Shown: piece after piece, positions 39,134 to 49,736 of the stretch
How the letters are laid out: each line of letters begins with the position of its first letter
Position numbering within the stretch: position 1 is the first letter of the stretch
DNA from: Escherichia coli
GTDB taxonomy: Bacteria > Pseudomonadota > Gammaproteobacteria > Enterobacterales > Enterobacteriaceae
Length of the DNA: 64,000 nucleotides
Direction: 5' to 3' (one strand)
Assembly (NCBI RefSeq): GCF_003334815.1
Contig: NZ_QOWO01000006.1
Notes under the pieces: generated by a model
Databases searched by the model: none
What the model was told of the DNA's origin: nothing
Seen by the model: the letters and a program-made list of their open reading frames with translations, nothing else
Position numbers and translations under genes: made by a program

Positions 39134-39910
39134 ATGTCCGAAACAAAAAACGAACTTGAAGACCTGCTGGAAAAAGCAGCAACTGAACCGGCGCACCGCC
39201 CGGCCTTTTTCCGTACTCTACTGGAATCCACCGTCTGGGTGCCTGGTACGGCGGCGCAGGGCGAGGCTGTGGTTGAAGATAGCGCGCTTGATTTACAGCA
39301 CTGGGAAAAAGAAGACGGCACCAGCGTCATTCCTTTTTTCACCTCGTTAGAAGCACTTCAACAGGCGGTTGAAGACGAACAGGCATTTGTCGTAATGCCC
39401 GTTCGCACGCTGTTTGAGATGACACTTGGCGAAACGCTCTTCCTTAATGCCAAACTGCCAACCGGTAAAGAATTTATGCCGCGTGAAATCAGTTTGTTGA
39501 TTGGTGAAGAGGGAAATCCGCTGAGCAGCCAGGAAATCCTGGAAGGCGGTGAATCGCTGATATTATCGGAAGTCGCAGAGCCGCCAGCACAAATGATTGA
39601 TTCACTCACCACCTTATTTAAAACCATTAAGCCGGTGAAGCGTGCTTTTATTTGTTCAATTAAAGAGAACGAAGAGGCACAGCCTAATTTACTTATTGGC
39701 ATTGAAGCCGATGGTGATATCGAAGAAATTATTCAGGCGACGGGAAGTGTAGCGACCGATACATTACCTGGCGATGAACCAATCGATATTTGTCAGGTGA
39801 AAAAAGGGGAAAAAGGAATTAGCCACTTTATTACCGAACATATTGCGCCATTCTATGAACGTCGCTGGGGTGGTTTTTTGCGTGACTTTAAACAGAATCG
39901 GATAATCTAA
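39134..39910 (+). CDS. sseB: SseB (enhancer of serine sensitivity) protein, about 258 aa
   Basis: Track ORF 39125..39910; start MSETKNELEDLLEKAA (alternative start 39125). Confidence 0.88.
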   Translation: MSETKNELEDLLEKAATEPAHRPAFFRTLLESTVWVPGTAAQGEAVVEDSALDLQHWEKEDGTSVIPFFTSLEALQQAVEDEQAFVVMPVRTLFEMTLGETLFLNAKLPTGKEFMPREISLLIGEEGNPLSSQEILEGGESLILSEVAEPPAQMIDSLTTLFKTIKPVKRAFICSIKENEEAQPNLLIGIEADGDIEEIIQATGSVATDTLPGDEPIDICQVKKGEKGISHFITEHIAPFYERRWGGFLRDFKQNRII

Positions 39911-39911
39911 A

Positions 39912-40215
39912 ATATGCCGCCCAAAGGGCGGCATTCGGGCTTACTTGCTGCTCTGAAGGTTGTTAACCACCAGTAAATTGTCGCCGGAGAGACTCCGGTT
40001 ATTATTTACCTCGGTTAACAGCGCACCAGAAACAATAAGTACGATACAAAAGCACCGTATCTTCATTGTGCGGTCCATGCGAAGACCGCATCACGACAGC
40101 ACCACTGGCGATATTGCCGCGATAGCAAGCGCTGTGAAACACCTGCATTTACGGCCACGGAACATCCTTTCCTAAAGCCAGCGCCCGTTTGCGAGACGGC
40201 GGAAAGGGCCGCAGT
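39912..40215 (-). ncRNA. ryfA: candidate RyfA-like transcript (about 300 nt), possibly a small-protein mRNA
   Basis: Minus-strand TATTAT -10-like hexamer at 40218-40223; about 300 nt downstream the minus-strand terminator hairpin at 39913-39937; contains a 24-codon ORF (40091-40165) with AGGAAAGG RBS; boundaries and strand are inferred, not proven. Confidence 0.35.
39913..39937. terminator. hairpin at sseB 3' end; T-tract is on the minus-strand side (better terminator for a minus-strand transcript)
   Basis: TGCCGCCC-AAA-GGGCGGCA; flanked by AAAATA on the + side so the minus-strand reading gives hairpin + UAUUUU. Confidence 0.55.
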
Positions 40216-40388
40216 GGATAATACACTAACAGAACAATAATAACTCTCTTTTGCTTGACAAAAAGAGAGTTACTGGCGAGTATTGTCTCCGCTGAGACGC
40301 GCTTGCATTACTACGGTAATACAACCTGCTGGAAAGGCCGCGAACCGGACCAGCAACAAAAAACCGCCTGATTTTGGCGGTTTTTTGT
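40198..40388 (+). repeat. paralogous unit 1: leader + TTGACA-centred palindrome + conserved block + intrinsic terminator (candidate ~100-nt sRNA gene on + strand)
   Basis: About 80% identical to 40520-40711; TTGACA at 40255-40260 inside perfect 11-bp inverted repeat (40242-40271); terminator AAAAAACCGCC-TGATTTT-GGCGGTTTTTT at 40357-40390. Confidence 0.6.
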
Positions 40389-40519
40389 TTTTTAAAGGAA
40401 AGTGAATTTACATGTTTAAGTAATATCTTTTACCGGTTAGAATTTTTAATTTTGAGCAGGATTTGTTTATATTTGTCTGAATTCGGACTAATAAGCCAGG
40501 TTATTTTATTACCGAACAC

Positions 40520-40711
40520 GGCGGAAAGGGCCGGTGTCGATAATACGCTAAATAAACAATAATTACTCTCTTTTGCTTGACAAAAAGAGAGTTACTGGTG
40601 AGTATTGTTTTGCTGTGAAGCACCTGCGTTGCTCATGTAACACAAGTCAACCTGCTGGAAAGGCCGCGAACCAGACTAGCAATAAAAAACCGCCAAATTC
40701 GGCGGTTTTTT
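40520..40711 (+). repeat. paralogous unit 2: same architecture as unit 1; its terminator also serves convergent sseA
   Basis: TTGACA at 40577-40582 inside 10-bp inverted repeat (40565-40592); conserved CTGCTGGAAAGGCCGCGAACC block; terminator AAAAAACCGCC-AAATTC-GGCGGTTTTTT at 40683-40713, 15 bp from sseA stop. Confidence 0.6.
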
Positions 40712-40727
40712 ATTGCCTGTAAAATAC

Positions 40728-41573
40728 TTATTTCACTGGCTCAACCGGTAAATCTGCCCGCGCGCCCCATTCACTCCATGCGCCGTCGTACAGTTTCACG
40801 TTTGGCACATCCAGCGTCGCGAGTGCTAACAAAACCACGGCTGCCGTTACACCAGAGCCGCAGCTGACGATAATTGGTTTGTCGTAGCTGACGCCGCGAC
40901 CAAAAAATATCGCATCCAGTTCATCGGTCGTTTTTAGTTCGCCTTCGCGCACCAGTTCCGTCCACGGAACATTCAGTGCTCCGGGAATATGTCCGCGACG
41001 TAAACCTGGGCGAGGTTCATCAACTTCTGCGTTAAAACGTGCAGCCGGGCGGGCATCAATAATTTGCGCCGTATTTTCATGGCTTGCCAATAATACATCG
41101 GTTACTTTCACCACGGCTTCAGGATTAAACGCGGCGTTAAACTCTCCTTCCGGCAGCTCTACTGCACCTTCTTCTAACAGCAGATCATCGCGCTGCCAGC
41201 CTGCAAGTCCACCCCCCAGAATCGACACTTTCTCTACACCAAAGGTGCGCAGCATCCACCATGCTCGTGGGGCTGAGAAAAGATTACCTTCGTCATAGAC
41301 AATCAGGTGCTTATCCTGGTTAACGCCTAATTCACGCATCGCCACGGCGAACGTTTCCGGGCGCGGCAGCATGTGCGGAAGCGGGGAAGTGTGATCAGAA
41401 AGCGCTTCGATATCAAAAAACACTGCGCCGGGAATATGTCCATTCAGATACTCCTGAGCAACGTTACGATCCTCCTGTCCAGGCGACGCCATGCGGGCAT
41501 CGATAATCTGAATTTCCGGGTCATCAATATGTTCGGCGAGCCAGTCGGCTCCTACAAACCATGTCGTGGACAT
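40728..41573 (-). CDS. sseA: 3-mercaptopyruvate sulfurtransferase (tandem rhodanese domains), 281 aa
   Basis: Track ORF 40728..41732; start MSTTWFVGADWL; active-site Cys in CGSGVTA. Confidence 0.93.
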   Translation of the reverse strand: MSTTWFVGADWLAEHIDDPEIQIIDARMASPGQEDRNVAQEYLNGHIPGAVFFDIEALSDHTSPLPHMLPRPETFAVAMRELGVNQDKHLIVYDEGNLFSAPRAWWMLRTFGVEKVSILGGGLAGWQRDDLLLEEGAVELPEGEFNAAFNPEAVVKVTDVLLASHENTAQIIDARPAARFNAEVDEPRPGLRRGHIPGALNVPWTELVREGELKTTDELDAIFFGRGVSYDKPIIVSCGSGVTAAVVLLALATLDVPNVKLYDGAWSEWGARADLPVEPVK

Positions 41574-41779
41574 AGGCATCTCCATTTTTGCCGGGGTTAG
41601 GCTAAATTGTCGGATGTTTAGTGAAAAGCGACAAGCAAAAGAGGCTGATTTGGCTGTCTGAGCCACAATTCTCACTAAAATTCGGATTGTATGGGCGTGA
41701 TACTGAATTACATAACGTAAATTCTCACGCATAATAATTATTCGACGTTGCTAACGGGCCATTGTGGCAGGGATGAAAA

Positions 41780-44700
41780 ATGAAAAAGTTACGCGTAGCC
41801 GCCTGCATGCTAATGCTGGCGCTGGCAGGGTGCGACAACAACGATAACGCGCCAACAGCGGTGAAAAAAGATGCGCCTTCTGAAGTTACTAAAGCGGCCT
41901 CTTCAGAAAACGCGAGTTCAGCAAAACTCTCCGTGCCGGAGAGACAAAAACTGGCCCAACAGAGTGCCGGTAAGGTGCTGACATTGCTGGATCTCTCTGA
42001 AGTCCAACTTGATGGTGCAGCCACGCTGGTGCTGACGTTCTCCATCCCTCTCGACCCGGATCAGGATTTCTCACGCGTTATTCATGTCGTCGATAAAAAA
42101 AGCGGCAAAGTGGATGGTGCCTGGGAGCTGTCAGATAATCTTAAAGAGTTACGTTTACGCCACCTCGAACCGAAACGTGATTTGATCGTTACTATTGGCA
42201 AGGAGGTCAAAGCACTCAACAACGCAACCTTCAGTAAAGATTACGAAAAAACTATAACTACCCGCGACATCCAACCCAGCGTCGGTTTTGCCAGCCGTGG
42301 TTCGCTGCTGCCTGGCAAAGTCGTTGAAGGGCTGCCGGTAATGGCGCTCAACGTTAATAATGTCGATGTTAACTTCTTCCGCGTTAAGCCAGAATCTCTG
42401 CCAGCATTCATTAGCCAATGGGAATACCGCAATTCGCTGGCGAACTGGCAGTCAGACAAACTGCTGCAGATGGCGGATCTGGTCTACACCGGACGGTTTG
42501 ATCTCAATCCTGCGCGTAACACCCGTGAAAAATTATTGCTGCCGCTGGGCGATATCAAACCGCTTCAGCAGGCGGGCGTGTATCTGGCTGTGATGAATCA
42601 GGCTGGACGTTACGATTACAGTAATCCCGCGACGCTGTTTACGTTAAGTGATATCGGCGTTTCAGCTCACCGTTATCACAATCGTCTGGATATCTTTACC
42701 CAAAGTCTGGAAAACGGCGCGGCCCAGCAAGGAATTGAAGTCTCTTTATTAAATGAGAAAGGGCAGACTCTGACTCAGGCAACCAGTGACGCTCAGGGGC
42801 ATGTGCAGCTGGAAAATGATAAAAACGCGGCATTACTGTTGGCGCGTAAAGACGGTCAGACAACGCTACTCGATTTAAAACTTCCGGCGCTGGACTTAGC
42901 AGAATTTAACATTGCTGGCGCGCCAGGCTATAGCAAACAGTTTTTCATGTTTGGCCCACGCGATCTTTATCGCCCAGGTGAAACGGTAATCCTCAATGGT
43001 TTGCTGCGTGATGCAGACGGTAAAGCGTTGCCCAATCAACCCATCAAGTTAGACGTGATTAAACCCGATGGGCAGGTACTCAGGAGCGTCGTTAGTCAGC
43101 CGGAGAATGGCCTCTACCACTTTACCTGGCCACTCGATAGCAATGCGGCAACCGGTATGTGGCATATTCGCGCTAACACGGGCGATAATCAGTATCGGAT
43201 GTGGGATTTCCACGTCGAAGATTTTATGCCAGAGCGCATGGCGCTGAATCTGACCGGTGAGAAAACCCCGCTAACGCCGAAAGATGAAGTGAAATTCTCC
43301 GTGGTGGGGTACTACCTGTATGGTGCACCTGCTAATGGTAATACTTTGCAAGGGCAACTTTTCCTGCGCCCACTGCGTGAAGCTGTGTCAGCCTTACCTG
43401 GTTTTGAATTCGGCGATATAGCTGCCGAAAATCTTTCCCGCACGCTGGATGAAGTTCAGTTGACGCTGGATGATAAAGGGCGCGGCGAAGTTTCTACAGA
43501 AAGCCAGTGGAAGGAAACGCATTCCCCATTACAGGTTATTTTCCAGGGTAGTTTGCTGGAATCGGGCGGTCGCCCGGTGACGCGCCGCGCTGAGCAGGCT
43601 ATCTGGCCTGCCGATGCATTGCCGGGGATCCGTCCGCAGTTCGCCTCGAAATCGGTTTACGATTATCGTACTGACAGCACGGTGAAACAGCCCATTGTTG
43701 ATGAAGGCAGTAACGCCGCTTTTGACATCGTTTATAGCGATGCGCAAGGCGTGAAAAAAGCCGTGTCGGGCTTGCAGGTGCGCCTGATTCGCGAACGCCG
43801 CGATTACTACTGGAACTGGTCAGAAGATGAAGGCTGGCAGTCACAGTTTGATCAAAAAGATCTGATCGAAAATGAACAAACTCTGGATCTGAAAGCGGAC
43901 GAAACCGGCAAGGTCAGTTTTCCGGTAGAGTGGGGCGCTTATCGTCTGGAAGTCAAAGCGCCGAATGAAGCGGTCAGTAGTGTTCGTTTCTGGGCTGGCT
44001 ATAGCTGGCAGGACAACAGCGACGGTAGCGGCGCAGTGCGACCCGACCGTGTCACGCTGAAACTGGATAAAGCCAGTTATCGCCCTGGCGACACCATTAA
44101 GTTGCATATCGCCGCGCCAACGGCGGGTAAAGGTTATGCGATGGTCGAGTCCAGTGAAGGGCCGCTGTGGTGGCAAGAGATTGATGTTCGGGCTCAAGGG
44201 CTGGATCTGACGATTCCGGTCGATAAAACCTGGAATCGTCATGATCTGTATTTAAGTACGCTGGTGGTACGTCCTGGCGATAAATCTCGCTCCGCGACGC
44301 CAAAACGCGCGGTTGGTGTGTTGCATCTGCCGCTTGGCGATGAAAACCGTCGCCTCGATCTGGCGCTGGAAACACCAGCAAAAATGCGTCCCAATCAACC
44401 ATTAACCGTGAAAATTAAAGCCAGCACTAAAAATGGCGAGAAGCCTAAACAGGTGAATGTGCTGGTGTCTGCCGTTGATAGTGGTGTGCTGAATATTACT
44501 GACTACGTCACGCCAGATCCGTGGCAGGCGTTCTTTGGTCAGAAACGCTATGGCGCAGACATTTACGATATTTACGGTCAGGTTATTGAAGGTCAGGGGC
44601 GTCTGGCAGCTCTGCGTTTCGGTGGCGATGGTGATGAGCTGAAACGTGGTGGTAAACCGCCGGTCAATCACGTCAATATTGTCGTGCAGCAGGCGCTGCC

Positions 44701-46741
44701 GGTAACGCTCAACGAACAGGGCGAAGGCTCGGTTACACTGCCGATTGGCGATTTTAACGGTGAATTGCGCGTCATGGCGCAAGCCTGGACGGCAGATGAC
44801 TTCGGTAGCAACGAAAGTAAAGTGATAGTTGCCGCACCGGTGATTGCTGAACTGAACATGCCGCGCTTTATGGCGAGTGGCGATACCTCGCGTCTGACGC
44901 TGGATATCACTAATCTTACCGATAAACCGCAAAAACTGAACGTTGCCCTGACCGCCAGTGGTTTGCTTGAACTGGTCAGCGATTCACCCGCAGCCGTTGA
45001 ATTAGCGCCAGGTGTGCGTACTACGCTGTTTATCCCGGTGCGAGCATTGCCGGGTTATGGCGATGGAGAAATTCAGGCCACCATTAGCGGGTTAGCGTTA
45101 CCGGGTGAAACCGTTGCCGATCAGCATAAGCAGTGGAAAATCGGCGTCCGTCCGGCGTTCCCGGCACAAACGGTTAATTACGGTACGGCGTTACAGCCTG
45201 GTGAGACATGGGCGATTCCGGCGGATGGATTGCAAAACTTCTCGCCTGTTACGCTGGAAGGGCAATTGTTGTTGAGCGGCAAACCACCGCTGAACATCGC
45301 ACGTTATATCAAAGAGTTAAAAGCGTATCCGTACGGCTGTCTTGAGCAAACCGCCAGCGGCCTGTTTCCGTCACTTTATACCAACGCAGCCCAACTGCAG
45401 GCGTTGGGCATCAAAGGCGACAGTGATGAGAAACGCCGTGCATCGGTCGATATCGGCATTTCCCGTTTGCTGCAAATGCAACGTGATAACGGCGGCTTTG
45501 CGCTGTGGGATAAAAACGGTGACGAAGAGTACTGGCTGACGGCTTACGTGATGGATTTCCTGGTCCGCGCAGGCGAACAGGGTTACAGCGTGCCGACAGA
45601 CGCCATTAACCGGGGTAATGAGCGTCTGCTGCGCTATTTACAAGATCCGGGCATGATGTCGATCCCGTACGCGGATAATCTCAAAGCCAGTAAATTCGCC
45701 GTACAGTCTTACGCTGCGCTGGTGTTGGCCCGTCAGCAAAAGGCTCCGCTGGGTGCGCTGCGTGAAATCTGGGAGCATCGTGCAGATGCCGCTTCTGGTT
45801 TACCGCTGCTGCAACTTGGCGTTGCGCTGAAAACCATGGGTGATGCGACGCGTGGTGAAGAAGCGATTGCGCTGGCGCTGAAAACGCCGCGTAATAGTGA
45901 TGAGCGGATATGGCTGGGTGATTACGGTAGTTCACTGCGCGACAACGCGTTAATGCTCTCCTTGCTGGAAGAAAATAAACTGCTACCCGATGAGCAGTAC
46001 ACTTTGCTGAACACACTTTCGCAGCAGGCGTTTGGTGAACGCTGGCTATCGACGCAGGAAAGTAACGCGTTGTTCCTGGCTGCCCGTACGATTCAGGATT
46101 TACCCGGTAAATGGCAGGCGCAAACCTCTTTCTCAGCTGAGCAGCTGACAGGCGAGAAAGCGCAAAACAGCAATCTGAATAGCGATCAACTTGTCACCTT
46201 GCAGGTGAGCAACAGTGGCGATCAGCCGTTATGGTTGCGTATGGATGCCAGCGGTTATCCGCAATCCGCACCTTTACCGGCGAACAATGTGCTGCAAATC
46301 GAGCGTCATATTCTTGGTACTGATGGTAAGAGCAAATCGCTGGACTCGTTACGTAGCGGCGATCTGGTGCTGGTGTGGTTGCAGGTAAAAGCCAGTAACA
46401 GCGTGCCGGATGCGTTAGTCGTGGATCTGCTGCCTGCGGGTCTGGAACTGGAAAACCAGAATCTGGCGAACGGTAGCGCCAGCCTGGAGCAAAGTGGTGG
46501 CGAAGTGCAGAACTTACTGAACCAGATGCAGCAGGCGAGCATTAAGCACATTGAGTTCCGTGACGATCGCTTTGTGGCGGCGGTTGCCGTTGATGAATAC
46601 CAACCGGTAACGCTGGTGTATCTGGCGCGGGCGGTGACGCCGGGAACGTATCAGGTACCGCAACCGATGGTGGAATCAATGTATGTTCCCCAATGGCGGG
46701 CGACCGGCGCGGCTGAAGATCTGCTGATTGTCAGACCGTAA
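41780..46741 (+). CDS. yfhM: alpha-2-macroglobulin-family lipoprotein, 1653 aa
   Basis: Lipobox LALAGC; thioester motif CLEQ (GCLEQTASG) in the C-terminal region; very large periplasmic protein. Confidence 0.95.
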   Translation: MKKLRVAACMLMLALAGCDNNDNAPTAVKKDAPSEVTKAASSENASSAKLSVPERQKLAQQSAGKVLTLLDLSEVQLDGAATLVLTFSIPLDPDQDFSRVIHVVDKKSGKVDGAWELSDNLKELRLRHLEPKRDLIVTIGKEVKALNNATFSKDYEKTITTRDIQPSVGFASRGSLLPGKVVEGLPVMALNVNNVDVNFFRVKPESLPAFISQWEYRNSLANWQSDKLLQMADLVYTGRFDLNPARNTREKLLLPLGDIKPLQQAGVYLAVMNQAGRYDYSNPATLFTLSDIGVSAHRYHNRLDIFTQSLENGAAQQGIEVSLLNEKGQTLTQATSDAQGHVQLENDKNAALLLARKDGQTTLLDLKLPALDLAEFNIAGAPGYSKQFFMFGPRDLYRPGETVILNGLLRDADGKALPNQPIKLDVIKPDGQVLRSVVSQPENGLYHFTWPLDSNAATGMWHIRANTGDNQYRMWDFHVEDFMPERMALNLTGEKTPLTPKDEVKFSVVGYYLYGAPANGNTLQGQLFLRPLREAVSALPGFEFGDIAAENLSRTLDEVQLTLDDKGRGEVSTESQWKETHSPLQVIFQGSLLESGGRPVTRRAEQAIWPADALPGIRPQFASKSVYDYRTDSTVKQPIVDEGSNAAFDIVYSDAQGVKKAVSGLQVRLIRERRDYYWNWSEDEGWQSQFDQKDLIENEQTLDLKADETGKVSFPVEWGAYRLEVKAPNEAVSSVRFWAGYSWQDNSDGSGAVRPDRVTLKLDKASYRPGDTIKLHIAAPTAGKGYAMVESSEGPLWWQEIDVRAQGLDLTIPVDKTWNRHDLYLSTLVVRPGDKSRSATPKRAVGVLHLPLGDENRRLDLALETPAKMRPNQPLTVKIKASTKNGEKPKQVNVLVSAVDSGVLNITDYVTPDPWQAFFGQKRYGADIYDIYGQVIEGQGRLAALRFGGDGDELKRGGKPPVNHVNIVVQQALPVTLNEQGEGSVTLPIGDFNGELRVMAQAWTADDFGSNESKVIVAAPVIAELNMPRFMASGDTSRLTLDITNLTDKPQKLNVALTASGLLELVSDSPAAVELAPGVRTTLFIPVRALPGYGDGEIQATISGLALPGETVADQHKQWKIGVRPAFPAQTVNYGTALQPGETWAIPADGLQNFSPVTLEGQLLLSGKPPLNIARYIKELKAYPYGCLEQTASGLFPSLYTNAAQLQALGIKGDSDEKRRASVDIGISRLLQMQRDNGGFALWDKNGDEEYWLTAYVMDFLVRAGEQGYSVPTDAINRGNERLLRYLQDPGMMSIPYADNLKASKFAVQSYAALVLARQQKAPLGALREIWEHRADAASGLPLLQLGVALKTMGDATRGEEAIALALKTPRNSDERIWLGDYGSSLRDNALMLSLLEENKLLPDEQYTLLNTLSQQAFGERWLSTQESNALFLAARTIQDLPGKWQAQTSFSAEQLTGEKAQNSNLNSDQLVTLQVSNSGDQPLWLRMDASGYPQSAPLPANNVLQIERHILGTDGKSKSLDSLRSGDLVLVWLQVKASNSVPDALVVDLLPAGLELENQNLANGSASLEQSGGEVQNLLNQMQQASIKHIEFRDDRFVAAVAVDEYQPVTLVYLARAVTPGTYQVPQPMVESMYVPQWRATGAAEDLLIVRP

Positions 46742-49054
46742 ATGCCTCGCTTGTTAACCAAACGCGGCTGCTGGATAACGTTGGCAGCCGCGCCCTTTCT
46801 CCTTTTTCTTGCAGCGTGGGGAGCAGATAAACTCTGGCCTCTACCGCTGCATGAAGTCAATCCCGCACGAGTGGTCGTGGCGCAGGATGGTACGCCGCTC
46901 TGGCGCTTCGCCGATGCTGACGGCATCTGGCGTTATCCGGTAACAATCGAAGATGTTTCTCCACGTTACCTTGAAGCGCTGATCAATTATGAAGATCGCT
47001 GGTTCTGGAAGCATCCGGGGGTGAATCCATTCTCGGTGGCGCGCGCAGCATGGCAAGATCTCACTTCGGGACGGGTTATTTCCGGTGGCAGCACGCTCAC
47101 TATGCAGGTTGCTCGTCTGCTTGATCCTCACCCCAAAACATTTGGCGGCAAAATTCGCCAGCTCTGGCGCGCGTTGCAACTGGAATGGCATCTGTCTAAG
47201 CGTGAAATTCTGACCTTGTATCTTAACCGCGCTCCGTTTGGCGGTACGTTGCAGGGGATCGGTGCGGCAAGTTGGGCTTATCTCGGAAAATCGCCTGCGA
47301 ATTTAAGCTATTCCGAGGCGGCAATGCTGGCGGTTTTGCCGCAAGCGCCCAGCCGTCTTCGCCCGGATCGTTGGCCGGAGCGTGCCGAAGCCGCGCGTAA
47401 TAAAGTGCTCGAACGGATGGCCGTGCAAGGTGTGTGGTCCCGTGAGCAGGTAAAAGAGTCAAGGGAAGAACCCATCTGGCTGGCCCCCCGACAAATGCCG
47501 CAACTGGCACCGCTGTTTTCGCGCATGATGCTCGGTAAAAGCAAAAGCGACAAAATCACTACTACGTTGGATGCCGGTCTTCAACGACGTCTGGAAGAAC
47601 TGGCGCAAAACTGGAAAGGGCGGTTGCCACCGCGCAGCTCACTGGCGATGATCGTGGTTGATCATACCGATATGCGTGTTCGCGGCTGGGTGGGATCGGT
47701 TGATCTCAACGATGATTCACGCTTTGGTCATGTTGATATGGTCAATTCGATCCGATCGCCAGGATCAGTGCTCAAACCGTTTGTTTATGGTCTGGCGCTG
47801 GATGAAGGCTTGATCCACCCGGCATCACTGCTGCAAGACGTCCCCCGGCGCACCGGTGATTATCGACCAGGTAACTTTGATAGCGGTTTTCATGGCCCGA
47901 TCAGCATGAGCGAGGCGCTGGTGCGCTCGCTGAACTTACCTGCTGTGCAGGTGCTGGAAGCCTATGGACCGAAACGGTTTGCGGCAAAGTTACGCAATGT
48001 TGGATTGCCGTTATATTTGCCCAACGGTGCTGCGCCGAATCTTTCACTCATTCTCGGCGGCGCTGGTGCAAAACTGGAAGATATGGCGGCAGCGTATACC
48101 GCGTTTGCTCGCCACGGCAAGGCAGGCAAATTGCGCTTACAGCCTGACGATCCGCTGCTTGAACGGCCTTTAATGTCGTCGGGGGCGGCGTGGATCATTC
48201 GCCGGATTATGGCTGATGAAGCGCAACCCTTGCCGGATAGTGCCTTGCCGCGCGTCGCCCCACTGGCATGGAAAACGGGCACCAGCTATGGCTATCGTGA
48301 CGCCTGGGCGATTGGGGTTAACGCTCGCTATGTCATTGGGATCTGGACTGGCAGACCGGACGGCACGCCCGTTGTTGGTCAGTTTGGCTTTGCCAGTGCC
48401 GTACCATTGTTGAATCAGGTCAATAATATCTTACTGTCGCGCAGTGCGAATCTGCCGGAAGACCCGCGCCCGAACTCAGTCACTCGTGGCGTTATCTGCT
48501 GGCCGGGCGGACAGTCTTTGCCGGAAGGTGACGGTAACTGTCGCCGCCGCCTGGCAACCTGGCTGCTGGACGGGAGTCAGCCGCCAACTCTATTACTGCC
48601 GGAGCAGGAAGGCATTAATGGCATTCGTTTCCCCATCTGGCTGGATGAAAATGGCAAACGTGTTGCCGCTGATTGCCCGCAAGCGCGACAAGAAATGATA
48701 AATGTCTGGCCGCTACCGCTGGAACCCTGGCTGACCGCATCAGAACGTCGCGCTGTGCGCTTACCACCGGCCTCGACAAGTTGCCCGCCATACGGTCACG
48801 ATGCCCAGCTCCCGCTGCAGCTGACAGGCGTTCGCGATGGCGCGATTATTAAACGTTTACCGGGCGCAGCGGAAGCGACTTTGCCGTTGCAATCAAGTGG
48901 AGGGGCAGGTGAACGCTGGTGGTTTCTGAATGGCGAACCGTTAACTGAACGCGGGCGCAACGTGACCCTGCATTTGACGGATAAAGGTGATTATCAATTG
49001 CTGGTGATGGATGACGTGGGGCAAATCGCGACAGTGAAATTTGTCATGCAATAG
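46742..49054 (+). CDS. pbpC: penicillin-binding protein 1C (transglycosylase/transpeptidase), 770 aa
   Basis: ATG immediately follows yfhM TAA; glycosyltransferase family-51 motifs (EDRWFWKHPG, RLLDPHP) and transpeptidase SxxK-type motifs. Confidence 0.95.
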   Translation: MPRLLTKRGCWITLAAAPFLLFLAAWGADKLWPLPLHEVNPARVVVAQDGTPLWRFADADGIWRYPVTIEDVSPRYLEALINYEDRWFWKHPGVNPFSVARAAWQDLTSGRVISGGSTLTMQVARLLDPHPKTFGGKIRQLWRALQLEWHLSKREILTLYLNRAPFGGTLQGIGAASWAYLGKSPANLSYSEAAMLAVLPQAPSRLRPDRWPERAEAARNKVLERMAVQGVWSREQVKESREEPIWLAPRQMPQLAPLFSRMMLGKSKSDKITTTLDAGLQRRLEELAQNWKGRLPPRSSLAMIVVDHTDMRVRGWVGSVDLNDDSRFGHVDMVNSIRSPGSVLKPFVYGLALDEGLIHPASLLQDVPRRTGDYRPGNFDSGFHGPISMSEALVRSLNLPAVQVLEAYGPKRFAAKLRNVGLPLYLPNGAAPNLSLILGGAGAKLEDMAAAYTAFARHGKAGKLRLQPDDPLLERPLMSSGAAWIIRRIMADEAQPLPDSALPRVAPLAWKTGTSYGYRDAWAIGVNARYVIGIWTGRPDGTPVVGQFGFASAVPLLNQVNNILLSRSANLPEDPRPNSVTRGVICWPGGQSLPEGDGNCRRRLATWLLDGSQPPTLLLPEQEGINGIRFPIWLDENGKRVAADCPQARQEMINVWPLPLEPWLTASERRAVRLPPASTSCPPYGHDAQLPLQLTGVRDGAIIKRLPGAAEATLPLQSSGGAGERWWFLNGEPLTERGRNVTLHLTDKGDYQLLVMDDVGQIATVKFVMQ

Positions 49055-49202
49055 TCTGTTTTGTCCCTGATTGTTGCTAAAACTCATTTTATTTTAAAAA
49101 AATGTTACCTTCATCAATAGTCAACGGCCCTGTTGCTCATTATAATCCGCGCCATCTCGTACGCTGGTACAGACAACAACAGAACAATTTACAGAGGTAA
49201 AA

Positions 49203-49634
49203 ATGGCTATTGAACGTACTTTTTCCATCATCAAACCGAACGCGGTAGCAAAAAACGTCATTGGTAATATCTTTGCGCGCTTTGAAGCTGCAGGGTTCAA
49301 AATTGTTGGCACCAAAATGCTGCACCTGACCGTTGAACAGGCACGTGGCTTTTATGCTGAACACGATGGAAAACCGTTCTTTGATGGTCTGGTTGAATTC
49401 ATGACCTCTGGCCCGATCGTGGTTTCCGTGCTGGAAGGTGAAAACGCCGTTCAGCGTCACCGCGATCTGCTGGGCGCGACCAATCCGGCAAACGCACTGG
49501 CTGGTACTCTGCGCGCTGATTACGCTGACAGCCTGACCGAAAACGGTACCCACGGTTCTGATTCCGTCGAATCTGCCGCTCGCGAAATCGCTTATTTCTT
49601 TGGCGAAGGCGAAGTGTGCCCGCGCACCCGTTAA
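49203..49634 (+). CDS. ndk: nucleoside diphosphate kinase, 143 aa
   Basis: NDK signature NGTHGSDS with active-site His. Confidence 0.97.
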
Positions 49635-49694: not shown

Positions 49695-49736
49695 CGCCCC
49701 CGGACGAGCAGCCGCTCACCGGGGCGTTTCTTTTTT
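49695..49736 (+). terminator. Rho-independent terminator downstream of ndk
   Basis: CCCCGG ... CCGGGG stem followed by CGTTTCTTTTTTC. Confidence 0.65.

What the first reader, a model, noticed from the sequence alone, without database searches (positions are those of the whole stretch)
41780..49054. alpha-2-macroglobulin lipoprotein gene abuts the PBP1C gene with zero intergenic spacing
yfhM (1653 aa, lipobox, CLEQ thioester motif) ends with TAA at 46739-46741 and pbpC starts with ATG at 46742, implying obligatory co-transcription and probably translational coupling of a protease-trapping protein with a peptidoglycan synthase. This is the known periplasmic defence/repair pairing, but the thioester motif, lipobox and gene junction are all directly readable here and confirm that both partners are intact.
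Basis: partly seen in the sequence, partly recalled or inferred. Interest (0 to 1): 0.3.

Follow-up and report, generated by a model that had tools for sequence, protein, structure and literature searches.

The report
Known E. coli yfhM-pbpC operon junction
This is the well-known, intact E. coli K-12 gene pair for a periplasmic protease trap (YfhM) and a cell-wall synthase (PBP1C), which touch with no spacer; the one addition is a conserved RNA hairpin just inside pbpC whose function is unknown.

Summary
yfhM runs 41780-46741 (1653 aa, lipobox LAGC, CLEQ at 1187-1190) and ends in TAA at 46739-46741. pbpC runs 46742-49054 (770 aa) and starts with ATG at the next base.

The stretch is 100% identical to E. 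coli K-12 MG1655 and is present in all 5426 complete E. coli genomes. YfhM has crystal structures, and the A2M-PBP1C pairing has been in the literature since 2004. The finding is therefore already known.

Both genes are intact. Co-transcription is the natural reading. Translational coupling is plausible: pbpC has no Shine-Dalgarno sequence, and 16 Enterobacteriaceae keep TAA plus 0 or 1 nt plus ATG.

"Obligatory" is too strong. More distant orthologues show gaps from -29 to +287 nt.

The hairpin covaries across 15 species (7 of 12 pairs compensatory). In one relative it meets a terminator consensus.

Published Term-seq lists no 3' end there, so its function (attenuator, stabiliser or reinitiation aid) is untested.

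Interest is low.

The parts
41707..41735 (+). Sigma-70 promoter-like site upstream of yfhM (ATTACA-17-CATAAT, 9 of 12). It is the only +-strand promoter-like hit between sseA and position 47624.
   Evidence: This is a consensus match only, and hit counts in the region are no higher than in shuffles.
41780..46741 (+). yfhM (ECAM), a 1653-aa bacterial alpha-2-macroglobulin lipoprotein. The stop codon TAA is at 46739-46741.
   Evidence: RefSeq annotates it as yfhM, alpha2-macroglobulin. PDB entries 4rtd, 4ziq and 5a42 are this protein. Pfam finds bMG1, bMG2, bMG3, MG2, bMG5, bMG6, BRD, A2M, TED, CUB and bMG10.
41822..41836 (+). Lipobox L15-A16-G17-C18 followed by Asp19. Asp at +2 is the inner-membrane retention rule for lipoproteins.
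   Evidence: Read from the translation. The +2 Asp rule comes from established knowledge. Inner-membrane anchoring is stated in PMC4498604.
44054..44605 (+). Bait-region domain: Pfam A2M_BRD covers residues 759-905, and the protease-sensitive disordered bait is residues 923-942.
   Evidence: Arg923-Leu942 is disordered after elastase cleavage according to PMC4498604. The sequence is identical to K-12.
45338..45349 (+). Thioester motif C1187-L-E-Q1190 in the TED domain (context YPYGCLEQT).
   Evidence: Pfam TED_complement hit.
46694..46756 (+). Predicted stem that buries the yfhM stop codon and the pbpC start codon.
   Evidence: The 120-nt fold has MFE -50.4 kcal/mol and z = -3.3. It is 94-97% paired in 6 Escherichia but shows no compensatory changes. 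RNAalifold does not recover it in other genera. The evidence is weak.
46739..46744 (+). The junction TAAATG, with 0 intergenic bases. No Shine-Dalgarno lies in the 21 nt upstream.
46742..49054 (+). pbpC (PBP1C), a 770-aa class A PBP. It has an N-terminal TM anchor, a GT51 domain (EDRWFWKHPG at 84, GGSTLTMQ at 115), a transpeptidase domain (SVLK 342, SLN 396, KTG 511) and a BiPBP_C domain.
   Evidence: NCBIfam equivalog NF008414 scores 1565.7 bits against a cutoff of 1121, and TIGR02073 also matches. Pfam finds Transgly, Transpeptidase and BiPBP_C.
46763..46792 (+). Conserved RNA hairpin (12-bp stem, loop AUAACG, about -19.7 kcal/mol) at +21..+50 of pbpC, within the codons for the TM anchor.
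   Evidence: In the 15-species gap-free alignment 93.9% of cells are paired, against 74.8 +/- 2.4 in shuffles (0 of 500). Seven of 12 pairs carry double changes, and slid controls reach at most 58%. In K-12 it ranks 4th of 576 coding windows.
46793..46811 (+). Pyrimidine/U-rich run CCCTTTCTCCTTTTTCTTG after the hairpin (11 T in 19 nt). It also encodes PFLLFL of the TM helix.
   Evidence: The T count is not unusual against synonymous recoding (p = 0.15). It does not meet the terminator scan rule in K-12, but the homologous run does in L009.
49713..49735 (+). ndk intrinsic terminator. It is the first experimentally mapped 3' end downstream of pbpC on this strand and the likely end of read-through transcripts.
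   Evidence: The Term-seq 3' end at 2644336(-) maps to window 49731.

Best explanation
This is the E. coli K-12 yfhM-pbpC transcription unit. YfhM (ECAM) is an inner-membrane-anchored periplasmic alpha-2-macroglobulin that traps proteases through a bait region and a CLEQ thioester. PBP1C is a membrane-anchored class A peptidoglycan synthase.

Both genes are intact. The most likely scheme is as follows. They are transcribed together from upstream of yfhM. pbpC has no ribosome-binding site of its own and starts on the base after the yfhM stop codon. It is therefore translated mainly by ribosomes that have just terminated on yfhM (termination-reinitiation). That would give much less PBP1C than YfhM.

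Shown: gene identity, intactness, the abutting junction, absence of a Shine-Dalgarno, and conservation of the tight junction in Enterobacteriaceae. Inferred: co-transcription, translational coupling and the expression ratio.
For: - Identity to K-12 MG1655 is 100% over 7.8 kb. The locus is present in 5426 of 5426 complete E. coli genomes and is annotated yfhM and pbpC.
- PDB entries 4rtd, 4ziq and 5a42 are this protein.
- The Pfam domain series of YfhM is complete, and CLEQ and the lipobox are present.
- PbpC exceeds the NCBIfam equivalog cutoff and has all GT51 and transpeptidase motifs.
- The junction is TAAATG.
- The anti-SD duplex energy is +0.4 kcal/mol for pbpC, against -6.0 (yfhM), -7.2 (ndk) and -5.9 (rlmN). 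That is weaker than 94% of all ATG triplets in the window.
- All 16 Enterobacteriaceae examined keep TAA plus 0 or 1 nt plus ATG, and none has an SD.
- No +-strand promoter-like or terminator-like consensus site lies between 41735 and the junction.
- A2M lies directly upstream of pbpC in 7 of 8 informative distant orthologue loci.
- The pairing and the operon statement are in the literature (PMC3328433, PMC4498604, PMC3735191, PMC7554673).
Against: - No transcript or translation data for this junction could be retrieved. The SMRT-Cappable-seq and Term-seq tables do not mention either gene.
- An in vitro RpoE-holoenzyme binding peak lies inside yfhM (PMC5493296), so an internal promoter is not excluded.
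- A conserved hairpin with a U-rich tail 21 nt into pbpC could stop or process part of the transcripts.
- Tight spacing is not universal. Distant orthologues show gaps of +287, +53 and +19 nt, and several have their own SD.
Confidence: 0.85

Rival explanations
1. The two genes are only partly coupled. The conserved hairpin at 46763-46792 with its U-rich tail would act as an intra-operon attenuator (weak intrinsic terminator) or as a 3' protective hairpin for a yfhM-only mRNA. Most transcripts would then end or be trimmed just after yfhM, and only a fraction would carry pbpC. The hairpin starts 21 nt past the stop codon. By inference, that is outside the footprint of a ribosome terminating on yfhM. 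It could then form whenever reinitiation fails, and a ribosome translating pbpC would melt it.
For: - The hairpin covaries in 15 species. 93.9% of cells are paired against 74.8% in shuffles, 7 of 12 pairs have double changes, and third-codon positions track non-synonymous changes in the partner arm. Two compensatory events occur within Escherichia alone.
- The hairpin-plus-U score beats synonymous recodings in 14 of 15 species (p from 0 to 0.05).
- It ranks in the top 0.7% of coding windows in K-12.
- The homologue in L009 is the only terminator-like hit in its 500-nt neighbourhood.
- In L018 the genes are 287 nt apart, and a terminator-like hairpin sits 11 nt after the A2M stop.
Against: - The K-12 copy fails the terminator consensus. 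CCC separates the stem from an interrupted U-run.
- The C. freundii-type locus keeps the hairpin but has no U-run.
- The complete Term-seq table of Adams 2021 lists no 3' end in yfhM or pbpC in three conditions. Low expression could hide one.
- The whole-90-nt MFE and the T count are not unusual against recoding in K-12.
- The hairpin-plus-U statistic was chosen after the hairpin had been seen.
- Most double changes trace to one deep split between two clades.
Confidence: 0.3
2. pbpC is expressed independently. In this view it is transcribed from a promoter inside the yfhM coding sequence, or translated by de novo initiation at its ATG. The abutting junction would then be mere genome compaction without functional coupling.
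For: - An RpoE-holoenzyme SELEX peak lies inside yfhM (PMC5493296).
- Distant orthologues tolerate spacers of 19-287 nt and have their own SD.
- One orthologue (L026) has no A2M upstream.
Against: - No SD precedes pbpC in any of 16 Enterobacteriaceae.
- In Escherichia the start codon lies in a predicted stem.
- No sigma-70-like site lies on the + strand inside yfhM.
- The SELEX peak is at least 2.5 kb upstream of the junction, of unknown orientation, and in vitro only.
Confidence: 0.12
3. The hairpin is a by-product of coding for the conserved N-terminal motif K-(R/K)-(G/S)-(C/R)-W-(I/L)-(T/W)-L-A of the PBP1C membrane anchor. Codons such as UGG, CUG and GCN form quasi-palindromes with G-U pairs. 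On this view the hairpin has no function at the RNA level.
For: - The stem falls on a conserved peptide.
- GCUGGC is self-complementary with wobble pairs.
- The whole-region MFE in K-12 is no lower than in recoded versions.
- Only 2 of 7 distant orthologues show an unusually stable hairpin.
Against: - Synonymous third positions covary with non-synonymous changes in the opposite arm. At pair 16-33 the types are U-A, C-G and G-C.
- Single-hairpin scores beat recodings in 14 of 15 species.
- Slid-partner controls collapse to 33-58% paired.
Confidence: 0.35

Closest known systems
ECAM / YfhM, type I (thioester-containing) bacterial alpha-2-macroglobulin of E. coli (PDB 4rtd, 4ziq, 5a42). The Salmonella homologue is 4u48.
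   Same: It is the identical protein. The window DNA is 100% identical to K-12. Lipobox, MG domains, bait region, CLEQ thioester, and the RDDR and ESMY motifs of the C-terminal MG domain are all present.
   Different: Nothing differs.
PBP1C (pbpC), class A penicillin-binding protein (NCBIfam NF008414 / TIGR02073)
   Same: It is the identical protein. It has a GT51 glycosyltransferase domain, a transpeptidase domain, a BiPBP_C domain and an N-terminal membrane anchor.
   Different: Nothing differs. No solved structure of PBP1C itself was found; the nearest is PBP1A, 4oon.
The A2M-PBP1C gene pairing described by Budd et al. 2004, as cited in PMC3328433, PMC4498604 and PMC7554673
   Same: The gene order and adjacency are the same, as is the proposed division of labour between protease trapping and cell-wall repair.
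   Different: The papers read here speak of genes that are 'juxtaposed', 'adjacent' or 'in an operon'. None of the passages retrieved discusses the zero-base junction, the missing Shine-Dalgarno or the hairpin inside pbpC.
Translationally coupled abutting or overlapping gene pairs (termination-reinitiation, as in trpE-trpD or trpB-trpA; from general knowledge)
   Same: The stop and start codons are adjacent, the downstream gene has no ribosome-binding site of its own, and the start lies in predicted structure.
   Different: Coupling has not been measured here. The classic cases often overlap (ATGA or TGATG) and usually keep an SD inside the upstream gene.
Intra-operon attenuating terminators and 3' stabilising hairpins (for example the REP hairpins after malE in malEFG; from general knowledge)
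   Same: A GC-rich hairpin sits directly after the more abundant upstream gene of an operon.
   Different: Here the hairpin lies inside the coding sequence of the downstream gene. The K-12 U-tract is poor, and no 3' end has been mapped there.

Membership tests
Type I bacterial alpha-2-macroglobulin (ECAM/YfhM class) | N-terminal lipoprotein signal peptide with a lipobox cysteine | tested here: met
   MKKLRVAACMLMLALAG-C18-D19, with lipobox LAGC.
Type I bacterial alpha-2-macroglobulin (ECAM/YfhM class) | CxEQ thioester motif in a TED domain | tested here: met
   CLEQ at 1187-1190. Pfam TED_complement hit.
Type I bacterial alpha-2-macroglobulin (ECAM/YfhM class) | Series of macroglobulin (MG) domains, a bait-region domain, CUB and a C-terminal MG domain | tested here: met
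   Pfam finds bMG1, bMG2, bMG3, MG2, bMG5, bMG6, A2M_BRD, A2M, CUB_A2MG and bMG10. The RDDR and ESMY motifs are readable.
Type I bacterial alpha-2-macroglobulin (ECAM/YfhM class) | Sequence identity to the structurally and biochemically characterised protein | tested here: met
   PDB 4rtd, 4ziq and 5a42, labelled 'lipoprotein YfhM', match at 3655-3686 bits. The DNA is 100% identical to K-12.
Type I bacterial alpha-2-macroglobulin (ECAM/YfhM class) | Protease trapping through bait cleavage and thioester activation | not testable with these tools
   The activity is reported for this protein in the literature (PMC3328433 and PMC4498604).
PBP1C (class A PBP, NF008414 / TIGR02073) | Score above the curated equivalog cutoff over the full length | tested here: met
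   NF008414 scores 1565.7 bits (cutoff 1121) over residues 1-770. TIGR02073 scores 918 bits (cutoff 494).
PBP1C (class A PBP, NF008414 / TIGR02073) | GT51 motifs, the transpeptidase motifs SxxK, SxN and KTG, and the BiPBP_C domain | tested here: met
   EDRWFWKHPG at 84, GGSTLTMQ at 115, SVLK at 342, SLN at 396 and KTG at 511. Pfam finds Transgly, Transpeptidase and BiPBP_C.
Translationally coupled gene pair (termination-reinitiation) | Stop of the upstream gene within a few bases of, or overlapping, the start of the downstream gene | tested here: met
   TAAATG in K-12. The spacing is 0-1 nt in 16 Enterobacteriaceae.
Translationally coupled gene pair (termination-reinitiation) | The downstream start is poorly accessible to free ribosomes (weak or absent SD, or occluding structure) | tested here: met
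   The anti-SD duplex is +0.4 kcal/mol. The start lies in a predicted stem with z = -3.3. That stem is not conserved beyond Escherichia.
Translationally coupled gene pair (termination-reinitiation) | Downstream translation depends on upstream translation | not testable with these tools
   This needs premature-stop or reporter-fusion experiments.
Intrinsic (Rho-independent) terminator / intra-operon attenuator | GC-rich stem-loop | tested here: met
   A 12-bp stem of -19.7 kcal/mol at 46763-46792. It is conserved with covariation.
Intrinsic (Rho-independent) terminator / intra-operon attenuator | U-tract immediately 3' of the stem | tested here: not met
   In K-12 the tail is CCCUUUCUCCUUUUUCUU, which the scan does not flag. 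The feature is met in L009 and absent in L028.
Intrinsic (Rho-independent) terminator / intra-operon attenuator | RNA 3' ends at the site in vivo | tested here: not met
   The Adams 2021 Term-seq table (complete file) lists no 3' end in yfhM or pbpC. Low expression may limit sensitivity.

The most novel reading that the evidence does not exclude
The conserved hairpin at +21..+50 of pbpC would be a functional RNA element that sets the YfhM:PBP1C ratio. By inference, it sits just beyond the footprint of a ribosome terminating on yfhM. It would form whenever reinitiation on pbpC fails. It would then end or stabilise a yfhM-only transcript, or hold the post-termination ribosome at the adjacent AUG. 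The terminator or attenuator of an upstream gene would in that case be embedded in the membrane-anchor codons of the downstream gene.
Probability: 0.25. Interest if true: 0.4.

Novelty: already known. Interest (0 to 1): 0.15.

Why it matters
The finding as given adds nothing to current knowledge. The genes, their motifs, their adjacency and the defence/repair hypothesis are all published, and the sequence is that of the reference strain.

What remains open in the field is what PBP1C actually does and how it is expressed relative to YfhM (PMC7554673). The missing ribosome-binding site and the strictly kept 0-1 nt junction give a concrete hypothesis for how the cell makes little PBP1C per YfhM. 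The covarying hairpin just inside pbpC adds to that hypothesis.

The hypothesis can be tested cheaply with stop-codon and synonymous stem mutants. It would be a modest addition to operon biology rather than a discovery.

Tried and rejected
- **Whole-region MFE test.** The first 90 nt of pbpC were compared with 1000 synonymous recodings. The result was not unusual (-28.7 against -31.4 +/- 4.1). The claim therefore rests on the single-hairpin score and on covariation, not on global stability.
- **T count after the hairpin.** It is not significant against recoding (p = 0.15).
- **Junction-occluding stem.** It is not supported outside Escherichia and shows no compensatory changes within it. I kept it only as weak evidence.
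- **Same-frame arrangement.** A single TAA separates the two ORFs in K-12. Nine other genera have a 1-nt spacer, so the frame relation is not conserved. A programmed read-through fusion is rejected.
- **Experimental 3' or 5' ends.** The Term-seq supplements of Adams 2021 do not list either gene, and neither do the SMRT-Cappable-seq supplements. No supplements are held for Dar and Sorek 2018 or Grunberger 2022.
- **Protein abundance.** The Mori 2021 supplement was cut and uninformative. Egan and Vollmer 2015 does not list PBP1C.
- **Papers not held.** Li 2014, Thomason 2015, Schmidt 2016, Budd 2004 and Doan and Gettins 2008 could not be read under the ids I tried.
- **Word-indexed protein search.** The listed hits (the best 120) were almost all Citrobacter at 85-86% identity, so it was useless for diversity. 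P0002 (903 aa) is a chimeric or garbled call, not a fusion.
- **Genome-contig scan.** It returned only 16 loci, and two of them are sub-500-nt contaminant contigs.
- **NCBIfam.** It has no model that hits YfhM.
- **Rfam.** Nothing was found in yfhM-pbpC at E <= 0.1.
- **Strict sigma-E consensus pattern.** It found no site in 41001-46800 on the + strand, which covers all of yfhM.

Full report
**Observation.** The ORF list gives 41780..46741 (+, ATG, 1653 aa) and 46742..49054 (+, ATG, 770 aa). The sequence reads ...GTCAGACCG TAA ATG CCTCGC..., with TAA at 46739-46741 and ATG at 46742-46744. The first protein begins MKKLRVAACMLMLALAGCD. That gives lipobox L15-A16-G17-C18 followed by Asp19, the inner-membrane retention residue by the +2 rule (established knowledge). 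It carries YPYGCLEQT, with CLEQ at 1187-1190. The two ORFs are in the same frame (4962 = 3 x 1654).

**Identity.** Window 41500-49300 is 100% identical to E. coli K-12 MG1655. It matches all 5426 complete E. coli genomes, and 5424 of them cover at least 80% of the query. RefSeq annotates sseA (-), yfhM, pbpC, ndk and rlmN with the same boundaries. PDB entries 4rtd, 4ziq and 5a42 are this YfhM protein, and 4u48 is the Salmonella homologue.
- Pfam finds the complete domain series in YfhM: bMG1, bMG2, bMG3, MG2, bMG5, bMG6, bait-region domain, A2M, TED, CUB and bMG10.
- PbpC scores 1565.7 bits on the NCBIfam equivalog NF008414, whose cutoff is 1121.
- PbpC has the Transgly, Transpeptidase and BiPBP_C domains.
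- PbpC has the motifs EDRWFWKHPG, GGSTLTMQ, SVLK, SLN and KTG.

Both partners are intact.

**What is known.** The papers read state that the thioester-type bacterial A2M gene is often juxtaposed to, or in an operon with, the PBP1C gene. They also state that a protease-trap plus wall-repair partnership was proposed by Budd et al. 2004 (PMC3328433, PMC4498604, PMC3735191). A 2020 review still calls the role of PBP1C speculative (PMC7554673). The finding as written is therefore already known.

**Translational coupling.** The 21 nt before the pbpC ATG give a best anti-Shine-Dalgarno duplex of +0.4 kcal/mol. The values for yfhM, ndk and rlmN are -6.0, -7.2 and -5.9. The pbpC value is weaker than at 94% of all ATG triplets on the + strand of the window.

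A 120-nt segment around the junction folds with z = -3.3, and a stem at 46694-46756 buries the stop and start codons. That stem is kept within six Escherichia without compensatory changes and is not recovered in other genera. I count it as weak evidence.

In 14 other Enterobacteriaceae loci from the genome scan, plus one Citrobacter freundii-type locus, the junction is always TAA plus 0 or 1 nt plus ATG. The anti-SD energies there are +0.4 to +0.6.

In seven more distant orthologue loci that keep A2M upstream, the called gaps are +287, +53, -17, +1, -29, -4 and +19 nt, and several have an SD. One orthologue has no A2M upstream.

Gene order is therefore ancient. The SD-less 0-1 nt junction is a feature of Enterobacteriaceae. 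It fits termination-reinitiation, which remains an inference.

**Co-transcription.** The consensus scan finds one promoter-like site upstream of yfhM (41707-41735). It finds no +-strand promoter-like or terminator-like site from there to the junction, although hit counts in the region are no higher than in shuffles. "Obligatory" is too strong. Zero spacing does not exclude promoters inside yfhM, and an in vitro RpoE-holoenzyme SELEX peak is reported inside yfhM (PMC5493296). That peak maps to window 44201 or 42224, depending on the genome version.

**An overlooked element.** The fold also shows a perfect 12-bp hairpin at 46763-46792 (GCGGCUGCUGG-AUAACG-UUGGCAGCCGC, about -19.7 kcal/mol). It is followed by CCCUUUCUCCUUUUUCUU (46793-46811). 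It lies 21-50 nt into pbpC, in the codons of the membrane anchor.

The other Enterobacteriaceae have a hairpin in the same register but with a different sequence, for example AAAAAAUCCCGCUGGCUUUGGCUGGCGGGUUUUUUCC. The evidence for conservation comes from a gap-free alignment of 15 species anchored on the ATG, which gives a 12-bp consensus stem:
- 93.9% of cells are paired, against 74.8 +/- 2.4 in shuffles (0 of 500 reach the observed value).
- The covariation score is 0.538, against 0.199 in shuffles (0 of 500).
- Seven of 12 pairs carry changes on both sides.
- Slid-partner controls fall to 33-58% paired.

Within Escherichia alone, two pairs change on both sides: C-G to U-A, and U-A to G-C in E. 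albertii. Several 3'-arm partners are synonymous third positions that follow non-synonymous changes in the 5' arm, which argues for selection on the RNA.

In K-12 the hairpin-plus-U score ranks 4th of 576 coding windows (0.7%). It beats synonymous recodings at p = 0.05, and at p <= 0.025 in 13 of the 14 other species.

The homologous hairpin in L009 is the only terminator-like hit in its 500-nt neighbourhood. In L018 the genes are 287 nt apart, and a terminator-like hairpin lies 11 nt after the A2M stop. Two of seven distant orthologues, both with overlapping junctions, also have unusually stable hairpins early in pbpC.

**Against a terminator function.**
- The K-12 copy does not meet the scan's U-tract rule.
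- The C. freundii-type locus keeps the stem without a U-run.
- The whole-90-nt MFE and the T count are ordinary against recoding.
- The U-richness is expected for Phe/Leu codons of a membrane helix.
- The complete Term-seq table of Adams et al. 2021 lists no 3' end in yfhM or pbpC in three conditions. It does list the ndk terminator and others nearby.
- The hairpin-plus-U statistic was chosen after the hairpin had been seen, and much of the covariation traces to one deep split between two clades.

I conclude that the hairpin is probably a selected RNA structure. Its function is untested. It could be an attenuator, a 3' stabiliser of a yfhM-only mRNA, or a barrier that holds the post-termination ribosome at the AUG.

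**Verdict.** Novelty is "already known", and interest is low. The only new lead is the conserved hairpin, and the SD-less junction gives a testable hypothesis for a low PBP1C:YfhM ratio.

Noticed in passing
window 46763-46811 (+): A conserved 12-bp hairpin with a U-rich tail lies 21 nt inside pbpC. It covaries across 15 Enterobacteriaceae. It is terminator-like in some relatives but not by consensus in K-12, and Term-seq shows no 3' end there.
   Followed up: yes
window 46739-46744: yfhM and pbpC share one reading frame and are separated by a single TAA, so read-through would give a 2424-aa fusion. Nine other genera have TAA-N-ATG, so the frame relation is not conserved.
   Followed up: yes
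window 39909-40725, both strands: This is the ryfA / IS128 (timP) small-RNA locus upstream of sseA. Rfam finds ryfA at 39909-40212 (-), IS128 at 40344-40552 (-), and a weak IS128-like match on the opposite strand at 40500-40725. Two near-identical terminators (AAAAAACCGCC...GGCGGTTTTTT) have Term-seq 3' ends at window 40388 and 40713 on the yfhM strand, antisense to IS128 and to the sseA 3' end.
   Followed up: partly
window 49055-49202 and 49713-49735: No terminator-like site lies between the pbpC stop and ndk. A good promoter-like site (TAGTCA-17-TATAAT, 10 of 12) sits at 49118-49146. The first mapped 3' end downstream is the ndk terminator, so yfhM-pbpC transcripts may read into ndk.
   Followed up: partly
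window 42224 or 44201 (inside yfhM): An in vitro RpoE-holoenzyme genomic-SELEX peak inside yfhM is reported in PMC5493296. Its orientation and in vivo relevance are unknown. A strict sigma-E consensus pattern found no site on the + strand.
   Followed up: partly
hits H2 and H3 (duck E. coli strains HL15 and SF10): An IS5-family transposase is annotated inside the sseA-yfhM-pbpC-ndk stretch in these two genomes, and the match is split into two pieces. The exact insertion point was not determined.
   Followed up: no
L010, L015, L017: These look like mislabelled or contaminated assemblies. A record named Chryseobacterium sp. 18061 carries an Enterobacteriaceae yfhM-pbpC locus. Contigs of 403 nt and 266 nt in Xanthobacter and Nocardioides assemblies are 99-100% identical to E. 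coli yfhM.
   Followed up: no
L018 5714-6000: In a 61%-identical orthologue locus with the same ndk-rlmN synteny, yfhM and pbpC are separated by 287 nt. The spacer has a terminator-like hairpin 11 nt after the A2M stop and further palindromic, REP-like sequence. The called pbpC start there is TTG.
   Followed up: partly
L026 1917-4262: A 43%-identical pbpC orthologue has acyltransferase genes upstream instead of an A2M gene, so the pairing is not universal.
   Followed up: no
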